Source: Pseudogymnoascus verrucosus
Lineage: Eukaryota
DNA: 64,000 nucleotides
Strand: one strand, 5' to 3'
NCBI GenBank assembly: GCA_001662655.1
Contig: KV460232.1
How positions within the stretch are numbered: the first letter of the stretch is position 1; the number at the start of each line of letters is the position of its first letter. A program made the translations under genes and the position numbers. The notes under the pieces are model-generated. The model did not search any database, had not been told where the DNA came from, and saw nothing but the letters and a program-made list of their open reading frames with translations. This document shows, one piece after another, positions 10,806 through 62,531 of this stretch.

Positions 10806-10951
10806 AGGCCGCCTCTCCCACTCATCCGCGGCACATTCGTACACAGTCATTGCCCTTATATCAACCCCTCCGCACTCCTGCAGTGCTTCTATAGCTGCAG
10901 GTAACTACTTTTGATGATAAGCAACACGGAGAACTAGATTGTAACAAGAAA

Positions 10952-12586
10952 ATGGCCTCACCGTACTCCACAATGAGCACTCCGTCATCAACAAGCTCGA
11001 CAGCAAACCTGGCGCCTGCTCCGCCAACTCTTGCTATCAAACCTGTCTCTCTGGCGCCCAATGCAATGGGAAGTCCTATGAACAGCTGTGACAGTCCTGT
11101 GTCGTTGGGACCGAGAAGAGAATGGGTCATCCCCCCACGACCAAAGCCGGGAAGGAAGCCCGCAACAGATACCCCACCAACGAAGCGGAAGGCGCAGAAC
11201 CGAGCTGCGCAGCGAGCTTTTAGAGAGAGGAGGGCGGCAAGAGTTGGTGAACTCGAGGAACAACTGAAGGAGACCGAGGAAGAAAGGCTCAAGCGAGAAG
11301 CACAAACGAAAGCTGAGCTGGACGAGGCCAGAAGTCATGTTTCAAAGCTAGAAGCAGACATGCAAAGGGTGCTCAATGAAGTTATTGAGTGGAAGCAGAA
11401 ATATCACAGAGCAGAAGATCTATTAGAAGCGGAACGAGCAGAGAAGGCAGCTCTTAATACCGAGTTAATTTATTTACGGAAGGGAGCACGAGCAATTGGA
11501 ACAGATGCTGTTGTTCTACCCCCGAGACGAAACAGGTCTCATCTCAAACCAGAGTCAGCTCAACTTCACAACCCAGCTCCAGCAGCGAATTCAGATCCTC
11601 TTGGATGTGGTAACTGCACAGCTACCAGTGGATGTGCCTGTGTTGAGAAGGTCATGGCAATGGCTACGTCAACATGTGGACGATGTTCTATTGATAGTCA
11701 TTGCGAATGTTTGGAGGAAACATTGAAAGGCCCCGATAGTGCCATGGAGGTTGAAGTGAAGCGGTCGCGCGACTCGTCACCTTTCACAAACAGCAAACGG
11801 ACACGAATGTCTATTGAAGATAATACTCCACAAGAGATTGATTTCACCGCCATGTTCTCTAGCAAACCTATCTACACCCCAGAACCACCACCTCGAGACT
11901 ATGGAACAGCCAACACAGCATCCCGCCCACCACCGGGAGAGTCATGTGGCTTCTGTGACGATAGCACGTACTGTGCATGTGCTGAGGCTGCCGAAGTTGC
12001 AGCCCGCGAGCTAGAGCACGAGAACCGCCTTCCACCCCTAATGAGCGAAGTTACTCCACCACCTTCAGACAGCGATGTCAACGCTATGGAGTCTTACAAG
12101 CTACCCTCGCTGTATCCAAACCGCCATATCCAATCTTTGGAACCACCGCCAAAATCTTCAAGCAATCCTTCTAATTCATGTGCCAACGGTCCCGGCACTT
12201 GCCAACAGTGCCAAGATGACCCAAAATCCGGGCTCTTCTGCCGCTCTCTGGCCGCCATCCGTGCCGCCGACCCATCGTTCTCTGGATGCTGTGGCCAAGG
12301 TGGTCCTGGTGGATGTTGTAAAGACACACCATCCCAACCACCACCACGGCCAGAACCTCGCAAGGCTAGACCAGTGCTTCCGGGCCCATCTCTCTCTTGT
12401 GCAGAGACCTATAAGACGCTCGCTAGCCACCGCAACTTTGAGGCGGCAAGCGATGAGATTAGTAAATGGCTGCCAAAATTAGCAACTGCCCCGCCACGGT
12501 ATCCCGGACGCGAGGCGACAGATATTGATGCAGCAAGTGTGATGAGCGTTATCAAGTATTTCGACGTAAGGTTTGGACGAGAATAG
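10952..12586 (+). CDS. hapX: Iron-responsive bZIP transcription factor HapX
   Basis: Hap4-like motif REWVIPPRPKPGRKP directly before the bZIP KRKAQNRAAQRAFRERR. Cys-rich regions include CGFCDDSTYCAC, GPGTCQQCQDDPKSGLFC and GCCG.GGPGGCC. Confidence 0.95.
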   Translation: MASPYSTMSTPSSTSSTANLAPAPPTLAIKPVSLAPNAMGSPMNSCDSPVSLGPRREWVIPPRPKPGRKPATDTPPTKRKAQNRAAQRAFRERRAARVGELEEQLKETEEERLKREAQTKAELDEARSHVSKLEADMQRVLNEVIEWKQKYHRAEDLLEAERAEKAALNTELIYLRKGARAIGTDAVVLPPRRNRSHLKPESAQLHNPAPAANSDPLGCGNCTATSGCACVEKVMAMATSTCGRCSIDSHCECLEETLKGPDSAMEVEVKRSRDSSPFTNSKRTRMSIEDNTPQEIDFTAMFSSKPIYTPEPPPRDYGTANTASRPPPGESCGFCDDSTYCACAEAAEVAARELEHENRLPPLMSEVTPPPSDSDVNAMESYKLPSLYPNRHIQSLEPPPKSSSNPSNSCANGPGTCQQCQDDPKSGLFCRSLAAIRAADPSFSGCCGQGGPGGCCKDTPSQPPPRPEPRKARPVLPGPSLSCAETYKTLASHRNFEAASDEISKWLPKLATAPPRYPGREATDIDAASVMSVIKYFDVRFGRE

Positions 12587-14687
12587 AGAGATGTTACACG
12601 ACTGATGCCGCAAGGCGCATACCCCGGATGTGAGAATTAAGTGATAAGGGTTTCAGGGTCTGGGAAATAGGATTGGTTGGTTCTGTACTATAATTACCCT
12701 AACGGATTTGGAGCCTCATGTTTCAATTGTTTCATTGAATTACTGGTGTCGCCTAAAAAGTCTGAGAAGGGATCATGGATTGGAGCACTGTATATAGCAA
12801 CTTTTGCCAAGTAAATGCGTTAGGAGTCACATATAAATGAACGTAACGATACAAATTATATTACTTTCAATTGTTAGTATTTGTCTTGAGCTATACACAG
12901 TCCCTCTTCAGACTTTTGAGCGGCACAACTACGGATAGCGAAGTGGAGGTTCTCATGTCACATGCTCTAGAATAAATGATGATTTCTTCTCTCTGACTTT
13001 GAGTGTGCACAACTACATTCGTGATACCCAATAAAGTAAACCTGTTGACCAGTCTAGCGGGGGGGTCGGCGTAAGAAAGTGCGAGGAGAGGATGGAAACG
13101 ACGGGTGAGGTGGTGTTGCGTCTGCATTAGTCTCATATGCAGGCGAGTATGCGTTGGCATTTCTCTTCGGCTATTTTATCCGCCTCCCTGACTCTCTGAC
13201 TGTGTGCAACATCCTGCCAGGTCACTCAGTGGCGATGGATGAAAATGAAACGCAAGAAAACGGCATAATGATTAATGTGAGTATTCTCTGGCCAAAATAG
13301 ACGATGGTATGGTCTGTGGAGAGGGATTTGACACTCGGACGTTGAATTGCGCGCATGCTTATGCGGCCATTTTGGCGGCCAGCGCATCTATGACGAGGGC
13401 AGCGAGCGAGTAAGTGCTGGTTCAGGGAGGAAAGGATGAGATGATATTTGTGGCACGTATCTCGTGATGTGGTGGTTACTTCGTGTTTGCCGTCAGAAGT
13501 ACAGAGGGGGCCACTGCGACCGGATTGGTCTCGATGTCGCAGAACGGCTTTGAATCAGCTTCTGGTGCTGTTTGCACAAAGCTGAAGATGCTGCAGGACG
13601 CCTGTAGTAAGATGCTGTATGAACAACAACGGTGCATACTATGGGATGTGACTGGTACTCCTGCTTTTTGCCTCCGTATATCACAGGGCACAGGTAGAGA
13701 GGTAGCGCTTGAATGCCGTCCAGTTGTCCAGTCGCTTCAAAGGCACAGGCTCATAGGAAACGACATATGAGCTGGGTATGAGCTGGCAAAGTGAATATTG
13801 CCACTCCAGTACATGGCCCGTACTGGCATCGTTGTTCCTGTCTGGCTGTTGTTTCCACCATGTTGCCTCGTATCTTATCTAACTCTCACCAACTTTGTCC
13901 CTCCGCATATCTGCATGTTCCATGTTCCAGCAAAGCAATTTGTATTCCATCCCCCCTGATGGTAATGGTAGGCAGGTGGTAGGTAGGTACCCTCGTCAGA
14001 TTTCTCATCTGTGGCAGGCTGAAAAGAGATCCAAAGGCTGGTAAAGGCTGGTAAAAGTCAACTCCGTATTCTCCATATTCAATACTGTATTGGCCGCCGC
14101 TGTCGCCAAAGAAATCCTGGTTATCGTGGCCTGTGCATCACATCGATGTCTGGCCCATGGCGTATGTTGATTGGCCGTTTATATTCCCTGGGGGAGGGAT
14201 GATTTGCTGGCAACGTGGGCCAGCATGAGCCAGCACGCCCAGTTCCTCACCACTGTGGGTGATCTGCAGAGTCCGGCTGGCAGTTGTGCTGGCTCTGCAC
14301 CATCTTAGCTCCGCTGTTGCGTTGCGCTGTCGCCGTATATATTACTATCGCGAACCTTGAGATATCTTTCTTCTTCTCGTATTTTGCTGAGCCTTGTTCG
14401 AAATTGCTGCGCGACCGGACCCTGGGTGTATTAATATAACATGACTTGGGACGGCGACGGGGAGCTCTTATCAATTGGTTTATCGGTGCGGAATTCGCCC
14501 CGCTGTTGACCCCCAACGTGTGCCAGCGACAACAACGAGAAGGCTGAGCAGCCTCACAGTCAACTCGACCACTGGTTGGACTCATTTCACGCTCGAGAAA
14601 TATATTTACCCGCATTTACCTACCATTTCTGGTGTCTCGCAGCTGAGAAAGCTCGAGACTTAGACCAGAAAACACGCAGATGGAGTG

Positions 14688-17600
14688 ATGATCCAAATGC
14701 AGCGGTCCACCTCCCTTCCTGGGCCAGCTCACGCTTCTCCCTGTATGTACTGGAAGACCGGAATGATCAACGAGAGCAGAGCAGCGAGCTAATGAATCTT
14801 TTACTAGCTCTACCGACAAGCGAACCTTTGTTTAATTCTAAGAATGCATTCAATCAAACATCACGGCCCCCATCCTCGAACCCGCGGCACGCGCCCGAAA
14901 GGCAGAGCCCATATGCATCATTTTTAAAGCCTGCCGATCAGGGGATACGTGATACTAATGCACAGGAAGATGCCACCAAGACTCCTAGTGCAGAACCTTC
15001 GAAATCGACATCTCCGACACTCCATAAGCCGTTGCTCGAAGACGTGTCCCAATATACGACTATTGATATGCGCGATGCAGCTATAGAGGCCAACTCTACC
15101 ACACTTGAAGAGCTTGCTCACCTAGTCAGGCTTTCCACATACCAGGAGCGAAAACGCCGACAAACCCGGGTCCGGCTACAACGATCACTGGTGTCCACTG
15201 CCCTCTCCGCCCGTCTGGCACGTTGCGGAGAACTCGCCCACCGGACTCTGGTCGACAGTTTTCGCTCGGATGATAAAAAGACCTTTGCCACACTTAACAA
15301 TGCAATCCATGACGTTAGCAATTCTTGCGATGCCACCAGGAGATTTGCTGCGTTGGAACCGGACCCGGATATTGGACAACCTGGCCATGGTCGTCCAGAC
15401 GAGCCGGGAACCTACTGGACTTTCATGCATGAGATTCCCACTCAGACCCGTGATACGTTACTCAACTTTTTGACTCAAATTCGGACGAATCCTGAATACT
15501 TGGCTACCCGCATATGCGCTCTAACACCGTCTGAGTTGACGGCATTGACTGTATTCCACCAAGGATTGGAGCCCGTCGATTCCGTTCTGCCATTCCATAC
15601 ACGTCCTCGAGGACAGGCTGCAAGCCTGAACCGGCCTTCTGCACATGCCCCTTCTCCAGTTGAGCGTCTACTCTCTTTCCAGCGTCATGACCCCTTGTCT
15701 GCTCTTATTCATACTTGCTTTGCAAATTCAGCGGGCCCTGATTCCTCGGAGCACCTGAGACGAACCGAGATATGGGCCACGGTGTGTGCTAGACTGATTA
15801 GCACTGAAAATAAAATCGCCATCGACCCGTTCATATGCAGCGTGTTAAACATCTGGACTGCCATGAGGGAGTGGTCCGGCCGCAGCAATCTAGAGTGGTA
15901 CCTCATGAAAATCCTAGAAGACGGGGCCTTTATAGTGGAGAAATCCGAGGGACAATCTGGTATCCGGGCCCATGGAGAACCAAGGAATGTCAAGGACTCC
16001 ATTGCTGCCGAGGAATTTTTTGATTCTGCCATCAAGGGACTCTTTGAGATTGTGGATGACCCAGGTGCCGAGGGGATCCCGGAGAGCGTTCTTGAACTAG
16101 GTAACGCAATCCTTCGGAAACTAGATCCGAGGAAACATGGAGCCACCAAGAGGTTTCTCGTGTCCAAATGGTTGTTTCTTGATTTCCTCCTTAACGCTAT
16201 TGTTCACCCCGAGGTATTTTCCATAGAGCCATCTATGGGTATGTTTGAGCTAATGGTTCTGCAGTCACATGGGATGATGACGGAATATCATATTTCGGAA
16301 TATGCAAGACAGCGAATTCTAAAGGAAGTTGCTTTGAGGGCTGGAAGACTAGTTGTTGACCTTACATGGTAAGTAACCTACATTTGTATAAAATGGCGAG
16401 GAAATTAACATCTGCCTAGGAAACAATCGCCAGCCACTCCACCTGACATCAAAGTCCACATCGAAAACATCATGGGCCGTTTCCGAACATCAAAGGTTTA
16501 CAGGTCAAACCCCAAGTTGCTTCCTGCCAGGTCAATCACTTCACTCAGAGAAACTGCCGAGGTTCGCCCTTATCTGGTCGTAAGCCCGTCTGATCTGGTA
16601 ACTATGGTAAATGCCTTATTCCCAGAGCGGCGTCCCACGTCTGGATCCGCGGCTAGCGAGTCTCATTTTGGCGGGTTCCCTTCTTCTGCATCGTCCATCT
16701 CTGGATTCTCCGTGATATCAAGGCCACCTTCCATGGCTCCCACTTCCCGGGGATTTGATACAGCATCCATAGTAAGTGAGAGTGAGTCGTCCATCTTCAG
16801 TGACGTAACGTCTCGAGAACCTCTCCTTGATGACAACTCAGTTGCCACTCACCGATTTTCGTCCACCTCCATCTCATCTATGAGCCAGGGTCCGAAATTC
16901 GACGATGAAGGGTACCGCCTTCGACAGGCAATCAGAGAGATGTCGCATACATTAGGACAGGACGTCATATCCGGATCGTGTCACCCTTGCGCTGAACAAT
17001 GGACCGTTCTATTTATGGAATTAGATGGAACACATTTATCCACCCAGATGCTCCATGACGAAGATGAGATGGAAGATGAAGAAGAGACTTCGAGCAGTGA
17101 TAGCGATGCGGACACCCAACGATCCAGACCGGACCTTGACAAAGACTATCATCAACTGCGTGATTCGATTTTGAAACTCGTCGGCGAATATGAAATACCC
17201 CGATCAATTGACGATACAAACGATTCAAGAACATTCAGTAACAGAGCAAACATCTTAGAAGGCCGGAAAGCGAATCGCCTTTATAGAAAGAAAAATTCCC
17301 GCGGACTGGAGGCACAATCTAGAAATCCGTACAGGGCACATACACTCGCATCACCTACAATCCCAGATGATATCAGGGAAGACCAGCAGGATGACAAGAC
17401 TCGCCATAACGAGGCCAATGACGCAAATTCATCTGTTTTACTAGACATGCTAGAAGCAGCAGAGAAACAATGCCAGGCACAATCTGACTTTGTAAATGCT
17501 CACCTCTACTGGAAGACGTCGCAGCAGCTGCATTCGCTTTCATCCTCTTCTCTAAGACAAAACGGCTTCGTTTCGCTTCTGAACATCTTTTCACGTGGAC

Positions 17601-20011
17601 CGAGGGACTCAATCCGACGTTCTGCAGCTGCCATCGAGGAATACGATGCCTGGCTTGTTTGGCTCAAGCAGTTACAGGAGCGGCACGACACAATGATAGA
17701 GGCGATGATGAGGAGCTACAGAGCGCTACGAGACAAGATGTGGTACGTCACAGATGTAAGAAATTCGGCCGCTTATGATGGTACTCGTAATGTGGCGCTT
17801 GCTCTCAGGGCGATGGCAAGGCCCAAGAATAATAAGCGTCCAATCTCTGCGACCTCGCGCGCGCGTAATATCAACAGGCCATCAACCACAAACAACTTCC
17901 TTGTCAGGACTGAGACTCAAGTCCTCGATATCCTAGCAGCATCCGACGAACATGGTGGCCCCAATAAGCTATCCGACGAACAGTCTGACAAAACATCAAA
18001 GTGGCTATCGCAGTTTGGTATCGAAAACTTTTGCAAGGGGGAAGAACGGATTCATCGATTCTGTCTTGAGATTGATAGCTGCATCAGCAAACTGGTTGGA
18101 GATAGCTTGATGGATGGGCCAGTTCTGTGGTCCAGTGAGCTTTTCTATCGCGATAAGCGGTACCTAGACACTGGCAGGCAAAAGGGGGACTTGGTACTAA
18201 ATGGATTTGGAGGACTCGGCATATCCGGTGATGGCACTGATCCGGACTCTTCCCAGCGAGGTTCTTCAAGGGGCATTGATATCAACGCCACTGCTCGTGC
18301 AAGCCCCCGGGATCTTCGATCGATGTCTATGAGAAACGGTTCTCAACAGAGCTTCGATTCAAGTAAATGGGGTTCATCTAGAATGAGCGTTTCTGGCGAC
18401 ATTATGGATTCTCAGGATTATTTTGGTCATGCGAGCCCAGTTCTTGCTATCGACACGGCCACAACATTTTGGTCACCGTTTAACCAGCAGGTACGATCAC
18501 CGACGCCAAGTGTTAGAAGCTTCCGTCCTGGAACATCATCGACAACAAATGACACAGTGATGGATGCTGGCGCAGAAACTATAAATGCCCCAACGAAGCA
18601 GACTTTCTTGATGGAGTTGAAACAGACTCTTACTGCTTTGCTGATTAGCGATCTCGGAAGCTTGGTCTTCTCCCGTGGAAGCGAAACAGATTCATGGTTC
18701 TCTGGCGACCTTGGACAAGAGTGCATGGACAGGAAAGCACGAAAGGACCGAAAGGCTAAACGGAAGAGCAAGCGTGGCCTTGAGAAGAAGAGGAGCTTCC
18801 GCGATTTAAGAGCGGCTCACAGCAAAGAGACCCAAACAAGTGAATCTTCGGAAGTCCCAGAGAAGATCGCTACTCGCGATTCGTCTCGACTAAGCCATGG
18901 AAGCTCCACGCCTTCTCACCATTCTCGAACGAACAGCTCTGCAACTTTGGATGCATCCACCGGGGTCTCCATGAGGCAACAGACCAGAGAGAATACTCCG
19001 ACGGACTTCCCGTACAAGGCTGCTTTCCGCAAGCTCCTCACTATGTTTTCAGTACACCCCAATCCATATTCGAAGCTAAACGCATTATATGAGTTGGAAC
19101 ATCTAGTTATTGCTTCTTTGACGACAATTCCCCGTCGAAAGGCAATGAAGCATGGTTCATACATGGCTTCACCGAGATCGTCAACCTTTCCAACAGACTA
19201 TAGCCGTGAGCCAAGCTTCGTGACTCCTCGGGCGAGCAATGTCGGCGAGGCGATTGATAATTGCAAAGAACGCCGTTCGCACGCCATTTACGAAGCTGAA
19301 CCAGCTCCGCCAGCACGCAAAGCCGAGTCTCGTTCCATGACTTCACCGGCCCCTGCAACTACAGATATGATTGTTGATGTACTTCAAGATCTTTTCCGCG
19401 AGGCCGGAATGCGTCCCAAGACTTTATTCCGCGACCTTCAGTATATTGCAGCATTCATCCCTGCGTCAGTTCTTGACAAGACCGACCGCGGGAAGGCTTT
19501 CTGGGATGCCGGTCTGGCCGCCCTCGGGTTGAAGCAAGATGTATGCCGCACTATGATCGATATTGCAGACGAGATTGTCCAACACTACACATCCACACGC
19601 CAACCTGTCCCGCCGCCAATGGCCCCGGGTCAATCACAAAATTCTTCGCGTGGATCTGTGGATTCGAACTCAGAACCTGAGATCATGCAATATGGAATGC
19701 AAGATGCAGCTCGCATGTGGACTATAACAGCAAAAGAAGGAGACCCAGCGGCAGAACGCGAACTTGCTATCTTCTATCTCACACACCCAGAACTAGTCGA
19801 GAGAACGACGCTGCCACTGTCAAGACCGAGAGAGACGTTCAAGGCCCAGGTAATGGAAATGCATGCTGGTGGTGGAGAGGGTGATAGAGAGCGAAGTGAT
19901 CCAGCCACCATGTGTGCGGCGTATCACTGGATGGAGTTGAGTTCACAAGGCGGAGATGAGCTGGCCAAGAAGTACCTGAGGCAGAGGGAGGAGCTGAATG
20001 CATTGCCATGA
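14688..20011 (+). CDS. Large conserved fungal protein (~1,720 aa), putative RasGAP-like + VPS9-like + Sel1-like domains; join(14688..14742,14808..16213,16265..16368,16420..20011)
   Basis: Two long ORFs are joined by canonical introns (14743-14807, 16214-16264, 16369-16419) that keep the frame. The domain call is from recalled motif similarity (see findings). Confidence 0.8.
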
Positions 20012-20690
20012 AAACTGGGACTGGCGTTGACAGTGCGGGCTATGTAATTTTTTGTGTCATTTGGGCGATGCTATATCTATACCATTTGCTTTTATGTTTG
20101 CAAGCATTTAGCGCACGTTATTTGGGAGGTTATTTGTCTTTTTGTTTGTTTAGTTCGTTATCGTATATAGAATGTTTCTACCTATGAGAAACAACCTGTG
20201 CAGGTAAAACAGAACTGCTACTGAGGGTTAAAAGGAGATTTGAATTTATTATGCCCATTAAAATACCCAAACTTAATGTAATTCTAAGATTCTGCGCTAT
20301 CTTGATGGTGCATGTTTGGAGACTTACGGCAGCCAAATATAGTTTGAGCAACTCTAGCACAAGCAAATAAAACACAGAATTTATTATAGGAATAAGTCTC
20401 TAATTGCTTCTGTTTGATAAATATTATATTTCGAAAACCGGGGTTTGTTGGTGGCATGGAATCCAGTGAACCCCTGTCTAGTTGTACACGCGAGTTGTTC
20501 CAAGTGTTCAAGTGTCTCTCTCCGAAACTACGGGGAGCGGAAGCAACCAAGATATCAATATTCCAACAACACAGCCATAATTAGTTTGCGATTAAAACAT
20601 CAAAGCAATGCAACTCTACTACACTTGATTCGCAGCCGTTTTCTCTTTTTTGACGTTCAATGAACTAATCACTGTCCCTACAGCCGCCCA

Positions 20691-23599
20691 ATGGATGACC
20701 TGAATGGCCTGGAGTGGTCGGCCAGCTCCAACTCCAGTGGAGGGGCCAGCAAGGTACCCCCAAGAGGGACTGGCAGCTACTTCGGGTCTATCTCAACACA
20801 GCAGCCAACGCCACCTTTGGGAGGCTCTCGCACATCCACGCCCATTTCAGCGCAAAGATCAGGGGCTGCAAATCCAAATCCCACCAGCAAACCCGCAACC
20901 GACAGCTTTGCTAACCTCGTCTCCTTTGGCCCCGCGAAAACGGCGACGTTGACGCTCCAGCAACAACAGGAGAAGCTTCTTGCGGAGAAGGCGAAGAAGG
21001 AAGAAGAGAAGAGGAAGCAATATGATAAGGAGTTTGGAAATACAAGCTTTTGGGATGGCCAGTCTGGAAAGGCTGGGTTTGGGAGGAGTCCAACTGGGTC
21101 GATCGCCCCCTCTACGACATCCCGAAGCCCCGCACCTCCTACACCTTCAGCTCGTGTGAATACGAACCCGTTCTCGGCGGCGAACCGCCAAAATATCGGC
21201 AAGACAAATGGCGAGGAGGAGGAAGATCTGTTTGCGGCTTTCAATGCTGATACAGAAGTTGACAAGTCGAGCTACTATCCGCCACCTTCAGCCTCCCCAG
21301 AGACTAGCGCCCCTACTCAGGACAACCAGCTGGATTTAAGCAACCCAGCAGCTTGGAAGCAATCGGCGGGGACTGATATGCTAGAGGCATTTCAAGATGA
21401 CGACGATCCATTTGGATTAGGCCAGATGCCCCAGCGGGGTAAATCGCCAGCGGTCACCGTGAGCAAGGCCGATGACGACGATGACTTCCTTGGCGACCTC
21501 GGAAAACCTGTTGAAGAAGTCAGACGCCGTGAAAGGGTACCGACTCCTCAGCAGGCCCCACCCTCACCGATTGAGTCTGAGCGGCCGGTATCTGACGACC
21601 CATGGGACAAAGCCGTGAACGAACTTGTTGATATGGGCTTCACCGCCGAGAACTCCAGGCGAGCTCTGACCGAGAGTGGATCTGGACTTAACATCCAAGC
21701 AGCAGTAGGGTGGTTGTTAAATGACGCGCATCGAGTAGCAAAAGAGAAGGCGCAAGGGCGATCAGGTTCTCGTCCAAGCGAGCCAAGTCGGGAGTCTAGC
21801 TCAAATGGAGCCCGAGCTGCTGCAGAGACGTCCGGAAAGGAAGCGATTCCATCTTGGATGCGGCAGGAGAGAGGCCAATCGCAGTCAAGACGTGAGGACA
21901 GCCGATCACCAGCTAGTGATAGCGATGTGGCTGCAAAAGCTGCCGCGGTAGGGAGCAACTTGTTTAAAACTGCCAACTCTCTATGGAAAACGTCTCAGAA
22001 AAGGGTACAAAAAGCCGTTGCTGAATACCAGCAAGATGTAGACCCAAGCCAGCCGAAGTGGATGCGTGATACCGGCGCAGCAGAGGGACAAAGGCCACCA
22101 GAGAAGGCGCCCCTACCAATTGATCCGCGTGAGCGAGGACGGAGAGGGGAGCCGTCGAGTTCGTCCGTGACCGACGAGGCTTTGATGCTTGAGATAGGGT
22201 CTCACCCACCGCCAAAACGCAACGTTCGAGCCGAGCCTAGTGATCGAGCACCATCTTCAGCTTCTTCCTCTCGAGGTCCCTCGCCTGCAGTTTCTAATGC
22301 CACAGGCGGGCGGTCTACACCTCTGCCCAGGCGGCAGCAGGTTGCACCAACTTCTGCCATGGATGCCAAATCTCGACTTACCAAACAGGCATTGGAAGAA
22401 CAGTCAGCGCAAGCATACGTGAGTCCATCACGACGAAAGAAGGCGACACCCAGCCCAAAACCGGCAGAGGAGCCAGATTTGCTTTTTGGAGATTCGAATG
22501 GTAAACAAACGAGCCTTCCTTCTCGACCTGAACCACCAAAGACAAATGTCCCGGCCACCAGAACCCCACAAGCCAGGCAATCTAAACCGTCTGCGCCAAT
22601 CCCCGTACGACCGAAAGCCCCTGAAAGAACAATCCCGCCAGTGTCTCCATCAGCCCTGGCGATGTCTCATCAACATCGTCTGGCTGGTACTGCGCATTTT
22701 AAACGGGGTGACTACGCCGCAGCCAATGATTCATACTCCCAGTCTCTATCACCCTTACCACAAGGTCACCCTATTACCATCATACTACTCTGCAACCGCT
22801 CACTTACCGCCATCAAGACGGGTGATCCCAAAACCGCTGTGTCCGATGCCGACACAGCGCTCTCTCTCATTGGCCCAAGCCGTGGTAGCAATGAGGTGAT
22901 AGACCTGCAGGACCAGTCCACCACAGACAGTAAGAAAAGTATGACAGAATTCTACGGCAAGGCATTGATGCGTAAGGCGGAAGCTCTTGAACACATGGAG
23001 CGCTGGGCCGATGCTGGTGCTGTATGGAGACAAGCTGTGGAGGGTGGCGCTGGCGGTGCGATCGCTATCCAAGGAAGACTACGCTGTGAGAAAGCGTTGG
23101 CACCTAAACCTAAGGCTCCAACGCCGCGTCCCCGAGCGACACCGCCTTCCCGCCCTACCGCCGTTGTTAAAGACTCTGAGGCAGTAACGCGAATGCGCGC
23201 TGCCAATGCTGCTGCGGATAAGGCAGATGACGAAAAGTTCGAGCTGAGTGATAGCGTCGACGCGCGGATAGCAGCTTGGCGAGATGGACGGAGAGATAAC
23301 CTAAGAGCGCTTTTGGGAGGATTGGATAATGTCCTCTGGGAAGGGAGCGGGTGGAAGAAGGTTGGCATGCACGACTTGATTATGAATGGGAAGGTCAAGA
23401 TCAACTATATGAAGGCGATCGCCAAGGTCCACCCCGACAAGGTAAGCTATTCATATCCTGGCTGGCTAATATTTTAAGCTAATACTTTTCTTCGCAGTTA
23501 TCACAGGGCGCAAGTACGGAGGTGAAAATGATTAGCTCTGCTGTGTTTTCGACCCTGAATGAAGCGTGGGATAAATTCAAGGCGGAGAACGGAATGTAA
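20691..23599 (+). CDS. SWA2: Auxilin-like clathrin-uncoating factor (UBA, TPR, J-domain); join(20691..23441,23498..23599)
   Basis: DPF/DLF/DLL motifs, UBA (ELVDMGF), TPR (FKRGDY..A...Y), C-terminal J-like domain NLRALL..L...LW...HPDK|...F.TLNEAW. Confidence 0.9.
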
Positions 23600-24034
23600 T
23601 TACGCTGGGACGACATTTTGTAAATAAACAATTTGACGGAACAGTTTGAATACTATAACGTACAGCAGATAAGATTCAATAGCATTGTTCCCATCTTCAC
23701 ATGTCAAGTTCTTTCTTATACTGTACCTCAAAGTGATTCGGGTGGGGGCCGTAGGGGGGTCCCGCCGGCAAACGGTGCACGGACCCTTAGAGAAGGTGCA
23801 GTCTGTTTAAGGTTTAGTTCACCAACTTGGGAGCTACTCGGCATGACGTATACGACGATTGCCGGTGACGAAGAAATGAGCGAGACAAACATAACAAGGA
23901 GCCGGAGGGATAATTCCTGTTATATTTCATAATTATTTCGATTGCCGGTTCTTATACCTACGCGCATTGCCCATGATAACTTCCACCGCCCTCGTATCTC
24001 TCTCTGTTGTTTCTGGTTTCAGCATTTAATCGCA

Positions 24035-61475: not shown

Positions 61476-62531
61476 ATGCTAGTCGATCCAGTTATGCCTC
61501 AGTATACAAAGCTGAGCAGCTTGCTCCCAACTGCAACTGCCCATCCATCTGTGGCCCCAATTGTGAGTATAGCTCTTAAGGAGCCATGATTTCTTCAAAC
61601 ACTTGTGCTTTAGAGGGGACTCAGACTAACCAGAATTTCGTGCAGCCCACAGTTATCCCAGACCTGCCTGTTTACCAGGAATTAGGCCATGCCGGACATG
61701 TCGCCCTTTGGGTAGGCTTCATTATTATGCTGCTATCCACTCTCGCCTTTATTAGCATGGCCTGGCGTGTCCCAGTGGTGAGACCCCTCCTTCCCATTGA
61801 ATAATTCCACAGCAGTATTGACAATTTATTAGGAAAAGCGTGTGTTCCATATTATAGCGACCTTCATTGCGGCATTCGCGACTATCTCGTACTTTGGCAT
61901 GGCTACTGGAGGAGGAAATTCTTTCGTGCATACGATAGCCTCGAAGTACCACAAACACACCGATCCAGTACACCATATTGATGTCTTCCGGCAACTATTT
62001 TGGGCCAGATATGTCGACTGGCTCCTCACGACTCCTTTGATACTTCTCAGCCTTGCACTCCTTGCTGGACTTAATGGCGCCGATATCCTTGTCACTCTCG
62101 TGGCAGATGCCGCCATGATCCTCACCGGCCTTTTCGCAGCTCTCGGCGAGACTAAGGGGCAGCGTTGGGGGTTCTACACCATTGCGTGGCTGGCGTACCT
62201 CATTGTGGTCTATCAACTTGTCGTTGGGGGCCGACGTAACGCATCCCGGAGAGGAACTGGAACCGCCAGGCTTTTCGGTGCCGTTGGAGGATTCATTCTT
62301 ATCTTGTGGACAATCTACCCAATTATCTGGGCTCTCGGGGCTGGAAAGGGCAAATTGTCAGTTGACTGCGAGATCATTTGGTACGTTGTACTGGATGTGC
62401 TGGCCAAGCCGGTATTTGCTATTTGGCTCTTGTCCACTCATGCTCGAACGGCTCCGACCATTGAGGGATTCTGGAGCCATGGCCTGAACAATGAGGGCGC
62501 TCTGCGTCTTGATGATGACGAGGCTGCTTAA
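61476..62531 (+). CDS. Type-1 (microbial) rhodopsin, Leptosphaeria-rhodopsin/NOP-1-like; join(61476..61562,61646..61777,61833..62531)
   Basis: Seven hydrophobic helices; helix C ARYVDWLLTTPL; LWTIYPIIW; retinal Lys in LDVLAKPVF; C-terminal GFW..GL..EGALR. Confidence 0.93.

What the first reader, a model, noticed from the sequence alone, without database searches (positions are those of the whole stretch)
14688..20011. Large 'hypothetical' protein looks like a fungal GAPVD1/RME-6 (RasGAP fold + VPS9 GEF) with a Sel1-like tail
Seen, N-terminal part: LLNFLTQIRTNPEYLA (~15460-15510) and, after splicing intron 16214-16264, WLFLDFLLNAIVHPE|SHGMM.EYHISEYARQRIL.EVA. Seen, C-terminal part: FPYKAAFRKLLTMFSVHPNPYSKLNAL (~19005-19090), then an ~85-aa insert, then TTDMIVDVLQDLF...PKTLFRDLQYIAAF...GKAFWDAGLAA (~19355-19525), then AKEGDPAAERELAIFY...AYHWMELSSQGGDELA. 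Recalled knowledge: the animal GAPVD1 RasGAP-like domain has FL..LR.NP..LA and FICPAIVNPEQYGI, and VPS9 domains have P.DK...ADD..PVL...P..L.S..QYI..F, where the Asp is catalytic (here TD). The last segment fits Sel1-like repeats. Inference: a divergent Rab5/Vps21-type GEF coupled to a Ras-binding (probably catalytically dead) GAP fold. As far as I recall this architecture is known from animals and not described in fungi, so it could be an unrecognised endocytic or signalling module.
Basis: partly seen in the sequence, partly recalled or inferred. Interest (0 to 1): 0.78.

Follow-up and report, generated by a model that had tools for sequence, protein, structure and literature searches.

The report
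Hidden GAPVD1-like protein in filamentous fungi
Moulds carry a large unnamed protein with a Ras-switch-binding fold at one end and a probable endosome-switch domain at the other, resembling an animal endocytosis regulator that was thought lost from fungi.

The parts
14688..14742 (+). Exon 1 (ATG; N-terminus MIQMQRS... shared with Leotiomycete orthologues)
   Evidence: splice joint in X15 and X18
14743..14807 (+). Intron 1, 65 nt, GT-AG
14808..16213 (+). Exon 2
15095..15352 (+). Conserved N-terminal long helical hairpin (aa 115-200) ahead of the RasGAP fold
   Evidence: AF2 helices 3-56 and 60-84 of the orthologue model; conservation
15416..16624 (+). RasGAP-fold domain (aa 222-590, spans introns 2 and 3); pseudo-GAP: FLR Arg position is D477 (16181-16183), finger loop aa 350-357 (15800-15823) shortened
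   Evidence: fold; residues; Pfam RasGAP below cut-off, E 0.14
16214..16264 (+). Intron 2, 51 nt, in frame; exon-2 ORFs of Morchella, Venturia and Alternaria orthologues end at the same place
16369..16419 (+).
16420..20011 (+). Exon 4 to the stop codon
17426..18169 (+). Conserved middle helical region (aa 858-1105): coiled coil ending in LRxKMWY, then the GGPNKLSDEQ...IENFCKGEERIHRFCLE block; fold not assigned; candidate for the helical bundle that precedes VPS9
   Evidence: comparison with the Vps9 helical bundle not significant
18584..18769 (+). Conserved helices aa 1244-1305 (LKQTLT.LL.SDLG...GSETD.WF)
19007..19597 (+). VPS9-like domain in two halves (19007-19123 and 19346-19597) split by a variable insert of about 70 aa (19124-19345); D1504 = Rabex-5 D313 position; K1547 and W1550 at the Y354 and T357 positions
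19688..19999 (+). C-terminal Sel1/TPR-like helical hairpins (aa 1612-1645 and 1681-1715), highly conserved

Best explanation
A highly diverged GAPVD1/RME-6 orthologue kept by filamentous ascomycetes. SHOWN: one spliced gene; N-terminal helical hairpin plus RasGAP fold without the FLR arginine; conserved C-terminal helical domain and tail. LIKELY (about 0.8): the C-terminal domain is a VPS9 homologue with a ~70-aa insert before the Asp finger. INFERRED: it acts at endocytic vesicles or early endosomes as a scaffold. The dead RasGAP fold and the hairpin bind a partner or localise the protein without turning Ras off. The VPS9-like surface contacts a Rab5-family GTPase with weakened or shifted exchange activity (true GEF activity on Vps21/Ypt52 about 0.35), while the three ordinary VPS9 proteins do the bulk exchange. 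The Sel1-like tail is an added binding module.
Against: No GAPVD1 sequence or structure was compared. The unedited VPS9 comparison is weak (E 0.006-0.012, score 22-24, below the best block shuffle of 31); the enrichment depends on where the insert is cut (2 to 29 of 40 over five other cuts; 3 of 40 uncut; 0 of 40 for either half; 2 of 40 for the natural short-insert profile). One background ORF (4.5 bits) outscored the Vps9 hit (3.0 bits), and the Vrl1-like protein was not hit. Pfam VPS9 appeared in 1 of 78 orthologue scans (E 0.092). Three of four essential Rabex-5 residues are replaced, and the Asp is lost in most Eurotiomycete-like members. No named member outside Pezizomycotina was seen, so the bridge to Fonticula is missing.
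Confidence: 0.62

Rival explanations
1. Same homology, but a fully active Rab5 (Vps21/Ypt52) GEF working like animal RME-6 on newly uncoated vesicles.
For: The Asp finger aligns in register and is kept in 118-122 of 164 orthologues, including this one; in human RME6 the matching D1429 is needed for Rab5 recruitment (PMC13388671).
Against: D313, P317, Y354 and T357 are essential and conserved in VPS9 GEFs (PMC3096779); here P317 is D/E/N/S, Y354 is K in 114 of 164, T357 is W in 139 of 164, and the Asp is lost repeatedly while the rest of the domain stays conserved. A ~70-aa insert sits next to the finger. This rival overlaps the best explanation in ancestry and differs in activity.
Confidence: 0.3
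2. An independent Pezizomycotina invention: a dead copy of a Gap1/IQGAP-type RasGAP domain fused to a VPS9-derived domain, convergent with GAPVD1.
Confidence: 0.13
3. The C-terminal part is not VPS9 at all but an alpha-solenoid-like (HEAT/MIF4G/TPR) region; the protein is a pseudo-RasGAP scaffold for Ras, Rho or septation signalling.
Against: That model was poor (mean pLDDT 49.8). Four separate VPS9 motifs (P..K helix, Asp, Q-Y/F-I, G-x-x-F) fall in the right order, and those between the Asp and the last helix at nearly the canonical spacing.
Confidence: 0.2

Closest known systems
GAPVD1 / RME-6 / Gapex-5 / RAP6 (animals, Dictyostelium, Fonticula)
   Same: N-terminal extension plus RasGAP-like domain, long low-complexity linker, VPS9-like domain near the C-terminus, Asp-finger position, similar size.
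   Different: Undetectable by Pfam VPS9 and RasGAP cut-offs; ~70-aa insert before the Asp finger; P317/Y354/T357 positions replaced; about 135 extra C-terminal residues with Sel1-like hairpins. Direct sequence comparison was not possible.
Fungal Vps9, Muk1 and Vrl1
   Same: In-register profile match over the VPS9 core.
   Different: All three kinds appear separately in this genome (the Muk1 and Vrl1 labels rest on domain content and recall). This protein has no CUE, ankyrin or Pfam DUF5601 hit and adds a RasGAP fold.
IQGAP GRD and fungal Gap1/Sar1 RasGAPs
   Different: No CH, IQ or RasGAP_C hit; even the second arginine of FLR/YYR is gone; finger loop shortened; own Gap1-like and IQGAP-like genes exist separately.
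Sel1-like repeat proteins (SEL1L, bacterial SLR proteins)
   Same: Helical-hairpin geometry and an A..W...A..G...A...L pattern in the tail (consensus recalled).

Membership tests
RasGAP fold | All-helical GAP domain superposing on p120GAP/NF1 | tested here: met
   [not shown]
Active RasGAP | FLRxxxPAxxxP motif | tested here: not met
   Arg position is D477 here; T 60, S 20, V 17, gap 13, R 9 of 140 rows; register from alignment to own RasGAPs
Active RasGAP | Arginine finger in a full finger loop | tested here: inconclusive
   Only four residues lie between the two flanking helices in the model; a basic residue there is K 105, R 12 of 140; the profile alignment placed the finger ambiguously
VPS9 domain | Pfam PF02204 above cut-off | tested here: not met
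   No hit in the window protein or at this locus; 1 of 78 orthologue scans at E 0.092
VPS9 domain | Profile-profile homology to canonical VPS9 | tested here: inconclusive
   Insert removed: probability 84.8%, E 6.5e-6, above all 30 shuffles; unedited: E 0.006-0.012, within shuffles; natural short-insert master E 0.0015, same register
VPS9 domain | Six-helix VPS9 fold | tested here: inconclusive
   Model of 1196 aa, pLDDT 49.8; no VPS9 chain among the rows shown
VPS9 GEF | Asp finger (Rabex-5 D313) | tested here: met
   D1504 here; 118 of 164 (MAFFT) or 122 of 164 (hmmalign) orthologues; lost in several clades
VPS9 GEF | P317, Y354, T357 of the Rab-binding groove | tested here: not met
   D1508 (P in 11 of 164), K1547, W1550; residues named in PMC3096779
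VPS9 GEF | Nucleotide exchange on a Rab5-family GTPase | not testable with these tools
   Needs an assay
Rabex5/Vps9/GAPVD1 clade | Helical bundle (DUF5601) before the VPS9 domain | tested here: inconclusive
   Conserved helices are present at aa 1030-1105 and 1244-1305, but the match to a shallow Vps9 profile was not above shuffles
GAPVD1/RME-6 | RasGAP (N) plus VPS9 (C) in one chain | tested here: inconclusive
   One transcript and RasGAP fold met; VPS9 likely, not proven
GAPVD1/RME-6 | Reciprocal sequence similarity or clade membership with GAPVD1 | not testable with these tools
   No GAPVD1 sequence came up or 73
Sel1-like repeats | SLR hairpins; Pfam PF08238 | tested here: inconclusive
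   [not shown]

The most novel reading that the evidence does not exclude
GAPVD1 survived in filamentous ascomycetes as a doubly rewired protein: a pseudo-RasGAP joined to a VPS9 domain whose Rab-binding groove was rebuilt (K and W for Y and T, with a near-invariant lysine on the last helix) and capped by Sel1-like hairpins. It would then be a pseudo-GEF that buffers Rab5, or a GEF for a different GTPase, for example the third, intronless Rab5-like GTPase of this genome (L013), defining a hypha-specific endocytic step.
Probability: 0.25. Interest if true: 0.82.

Novelty: new variant of a known kind. Interest (0 to 1): 0.62.

Why it matters
The one family-wide survey found (PMC6032885) concludes that GAPVD1 was lost in Fungi after Fonticula, and filamentous fungi are credited with three VPS9 proteins (PMC7418515). 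A fourth, conserved, single-copy VPS9-like protein with a RasGAP fold across Pezizomycotina would revise that history. It would also give a ready knock-out target in Neurospora or Aspergillus nidulans for how Rab5 is first loaded on endocytic vesicles at hyphal tips, and a natural experiment on a GEF that loses its catalytic Asp in some lineages. Even if the VPS9 call fails, a previously unannotated fifth RasGAP-fold protein in these fungi stands.

Tried and rejected
Pfam on window pieces and orthologues: no hit above cut-off for RasGAP, VPS9, DUF5601 or Sel1. PDB sequence searches with P0002 and profiles A1, A3, A6: nothing meaningful (one chance hit at E 0.28). ESM Atlas: N-terminal part gave two unnamed Ascomycota clusters and RasGAP clusters (score 0.91); the VPS9-like part gave no usable named hit. 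The AF2 model of exon 4 was too poor; no VPS9 chain appeared, which shows nothing either way. Complex prediction of aa 1242-1587 with Vps21 (P0483): no verdict, score 0.00, alignments not used; it is not evidence. Helical-bundle homology: not significant. Viral contigs held no VPS9 relative; the viral fold library gave no match at E 0.001 or better. No GAPVD1-like ORF among 80 metagenome VPS9 loci. A functional link to the neighbouring auxilin/Swa2-like gene was considered and rejected as probably chance: merged gene models join orthologues to different neighbours in other fungi (DHH/DHHA2 in P0202 and P0208, PF08657 in P0207, UBA/TPR only in Pseudogymnoascus P0206). The UniRef labels 'UBA domain-containing' (P0205, P0289) were not confirmed by Pfam; 'chromatin assembly factor 1 subunit' labels were not tested and look like neighbour carry-over. 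Runs with a small share of words (X18-X20) were used only after laying (X18, X19). Six locus tags of orthologues appear in no paper of the library.

Full report
Gene. The window is G000:C27:248001-312000 of a 30-Mb genome; an exon of its Vps21 is 98% identical to a Pseudogymnoascus australis protein. The gene runs 14688-20011 on the + strand in four exons with GT-AG introns at 14743-14807, 16214-16264 and 16369-16419, and encodes 1718 aa. Full-length orthologues confirm the start and junctions. Of four runs laid, X18 has one 6080-base contig that skips all three introns and covers 14400-20265, X15 skips intron 1, X19 skips intron 2, and X17 shows no joint (X18 and X15 are RNA by guess only). 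Two searches of the genome found no second copy.

Distribution. Exon 4 found 1014 proteins among 8000 candidates (120 listed); the N-terminal region of a distant orthologue found 450 (120 listed); a profile search of 1.84 billion representatives found 427 at E 0.001 or better (150 listed, 277 unseen). Named members include Botrytis, Colletotrichum, Alternaria, Venturia, Tuber, Morchella, Talaromyces, Xylographa, Bacidia, Geoglossum and Ceratocystis, all Pezizomycotina (class assignments recalled). Nearly all are 'hypothetical'; one UniRef record is named 'Gtpase activating protein'. No named member outside Pezizomycotina was seen, but the weaker hits were not shown.

C-terminal domain. Pfam VPS9 finds three other loci in the genome and not this one: one with DUF5601 and CUE, one with ankyrins and one with VPS9 alone. 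The model of exon 4 was poor (pLDDT 49.8) and the fold searches were inconclusive. I therefore compared profiles. The family set is 164 sequences, chosen from 468 stored proteins by a pattern around RDLQ (416 passed) and thinned at 70% identity, so the invariance of RDLQ is by selection. The distance between the two motif blocks varies from 72 to over 160 residues and the stretch is poorly conserved (0.30 against 0.57 and 0.65 for its flanks), which justifies treating it as an insert. With it removed, hhalign against 39 canonical fungal VPS9 domains gives probability 84.8%, E 6.5e-6, score 37; 30 block shuffles reach 20.7. P..K lies on P..K, TD on the Asp finger, LQYI on VQYI. Unedited, only the second half aligns (E 0.006-0.012) and one shuffle scores higher. 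With the naturally short member P0343 as master, the same register spans a 21-residue gap (E 0.0015, probability 16%). In hmmsearch over 4933 ORFs of 80 loci, 32 of the top 40 hits fall on VPS9 domains (1.6% of residues), but five other cut points give 8, 29, 24, 6 and 2 of 40, the uncut profile 3, each half 0 and the reversed profile 0; these loci are two related subfamilies, not independent. VPS9 homology is likely (about 0.8), not proven.

Activity. Four Rabex-5 residues, D313, P317, Y354 and T357, are essential and conserved (PMC3096779, one passage seen); their places were carried over through the genome's canonical VPS9 proteins. Here D1504 is kept in 118-122 of 164, P317 becomes D/E/N/S (P in 11), Y354 becomes K (114), T357 becomes W (139). 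On a tree of 156 sequences the Asp persists in most branches and is lost in the clade holding Talaromyces, in part of the Xylographa clade, in Ceratocystidaceae and in scattered others (FastTree, midpoint root, 8 gappy rows left out). So the domain is under strong constraint while its catalytic signature is relaxed. This points to binding or scaffolding, or to a changed substrate, more than to a standard Rab5 GEF.

Comparison with print. [quoted passage not shown] PMC7418515 (passages) counts three VPS9 proteins in yeast and Pyricularia. PMC13388671 (passages) shows human RME6 acting with Rabex5 on uncoated endocytic carriers and needing D1429. PMC7671991 (passages) gives the human RasGAP-like domain as residues 79-454. 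PMC10023807 (passages; supplement not read) does not mention RasGAP. Ten searches (listings seen) showed no paper describing a GAPVD1-like protein in Dikarya; the library lacks most subscription journals.

Verdict. It works like a GAPVD1/RME-6-type endosomal scaffold with a dead RasGAP fold and a remodelled VPS9 domain (0.62). Membership of GAPVD1 rests on architecture and parsimony; the direct sequence test could not be run. It fails the tests for an active RasGAP and three of four residue tests for a standard VPS9 GEF. It is a new variant of a known kind, with interest 0.62.

Noticed in passing
window 20694-23600 (+): Next gene downstream is auxilin/Swa2-like: UBA and TPR hits and a C-terminal HPD J-domain motif. 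It is merged with this gene in one Pseudogymnoascus model (P0206). Adjacency does not look conserved in other fungi.
   Followed up: partly
L013 1450-2391 (G000:C55:62299-62709): Intronless Rab-like GTPase with an IGASFLT switch motif and a long insert, besides the Vps21-like (L011) and Ypt52-like (L023) genes; possibly a third Rab5-family member (label recalled) and a candidate partner.
   Followed up: no
[not shown]
   Followed up: no
window 19232-19282: A conserved helix (LEExIxNCxERR) lies inside the VPS9 insert in most lineages and is missing in short-insert members.
   Followed up: partly
window 17070-17110: Acidic run (DEDEMEDEEE...SSSDSD) after a conserved CHPCAE.W motif in the linker; possible kinase sites or metal-binding motif, untested.
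   Followed up: no
window 61833-62531 (+): Microbial-opsin-like gene (Bac_rhodopsin, E 5e-39).
   Followed up: no
window 10895-12586 (+): HapX-like bZIP factor (Hap4_Hap_bind plus bZIP).
   Followed up: no
window 2602-63703: Other genes are ordinary housekeeping by Pfam: APC TPR subunit, Glu/Gln-tRNA ligase, COG2, PhoD, Sgt1, a kinase, Cyk3, V-ATPase A, WDR26-like, PfkB, dynamin, CoA-transferase III, inositol 5-phosphatase-like, CID protein, DNA ligase N-terminal domain.
   Followed up: no
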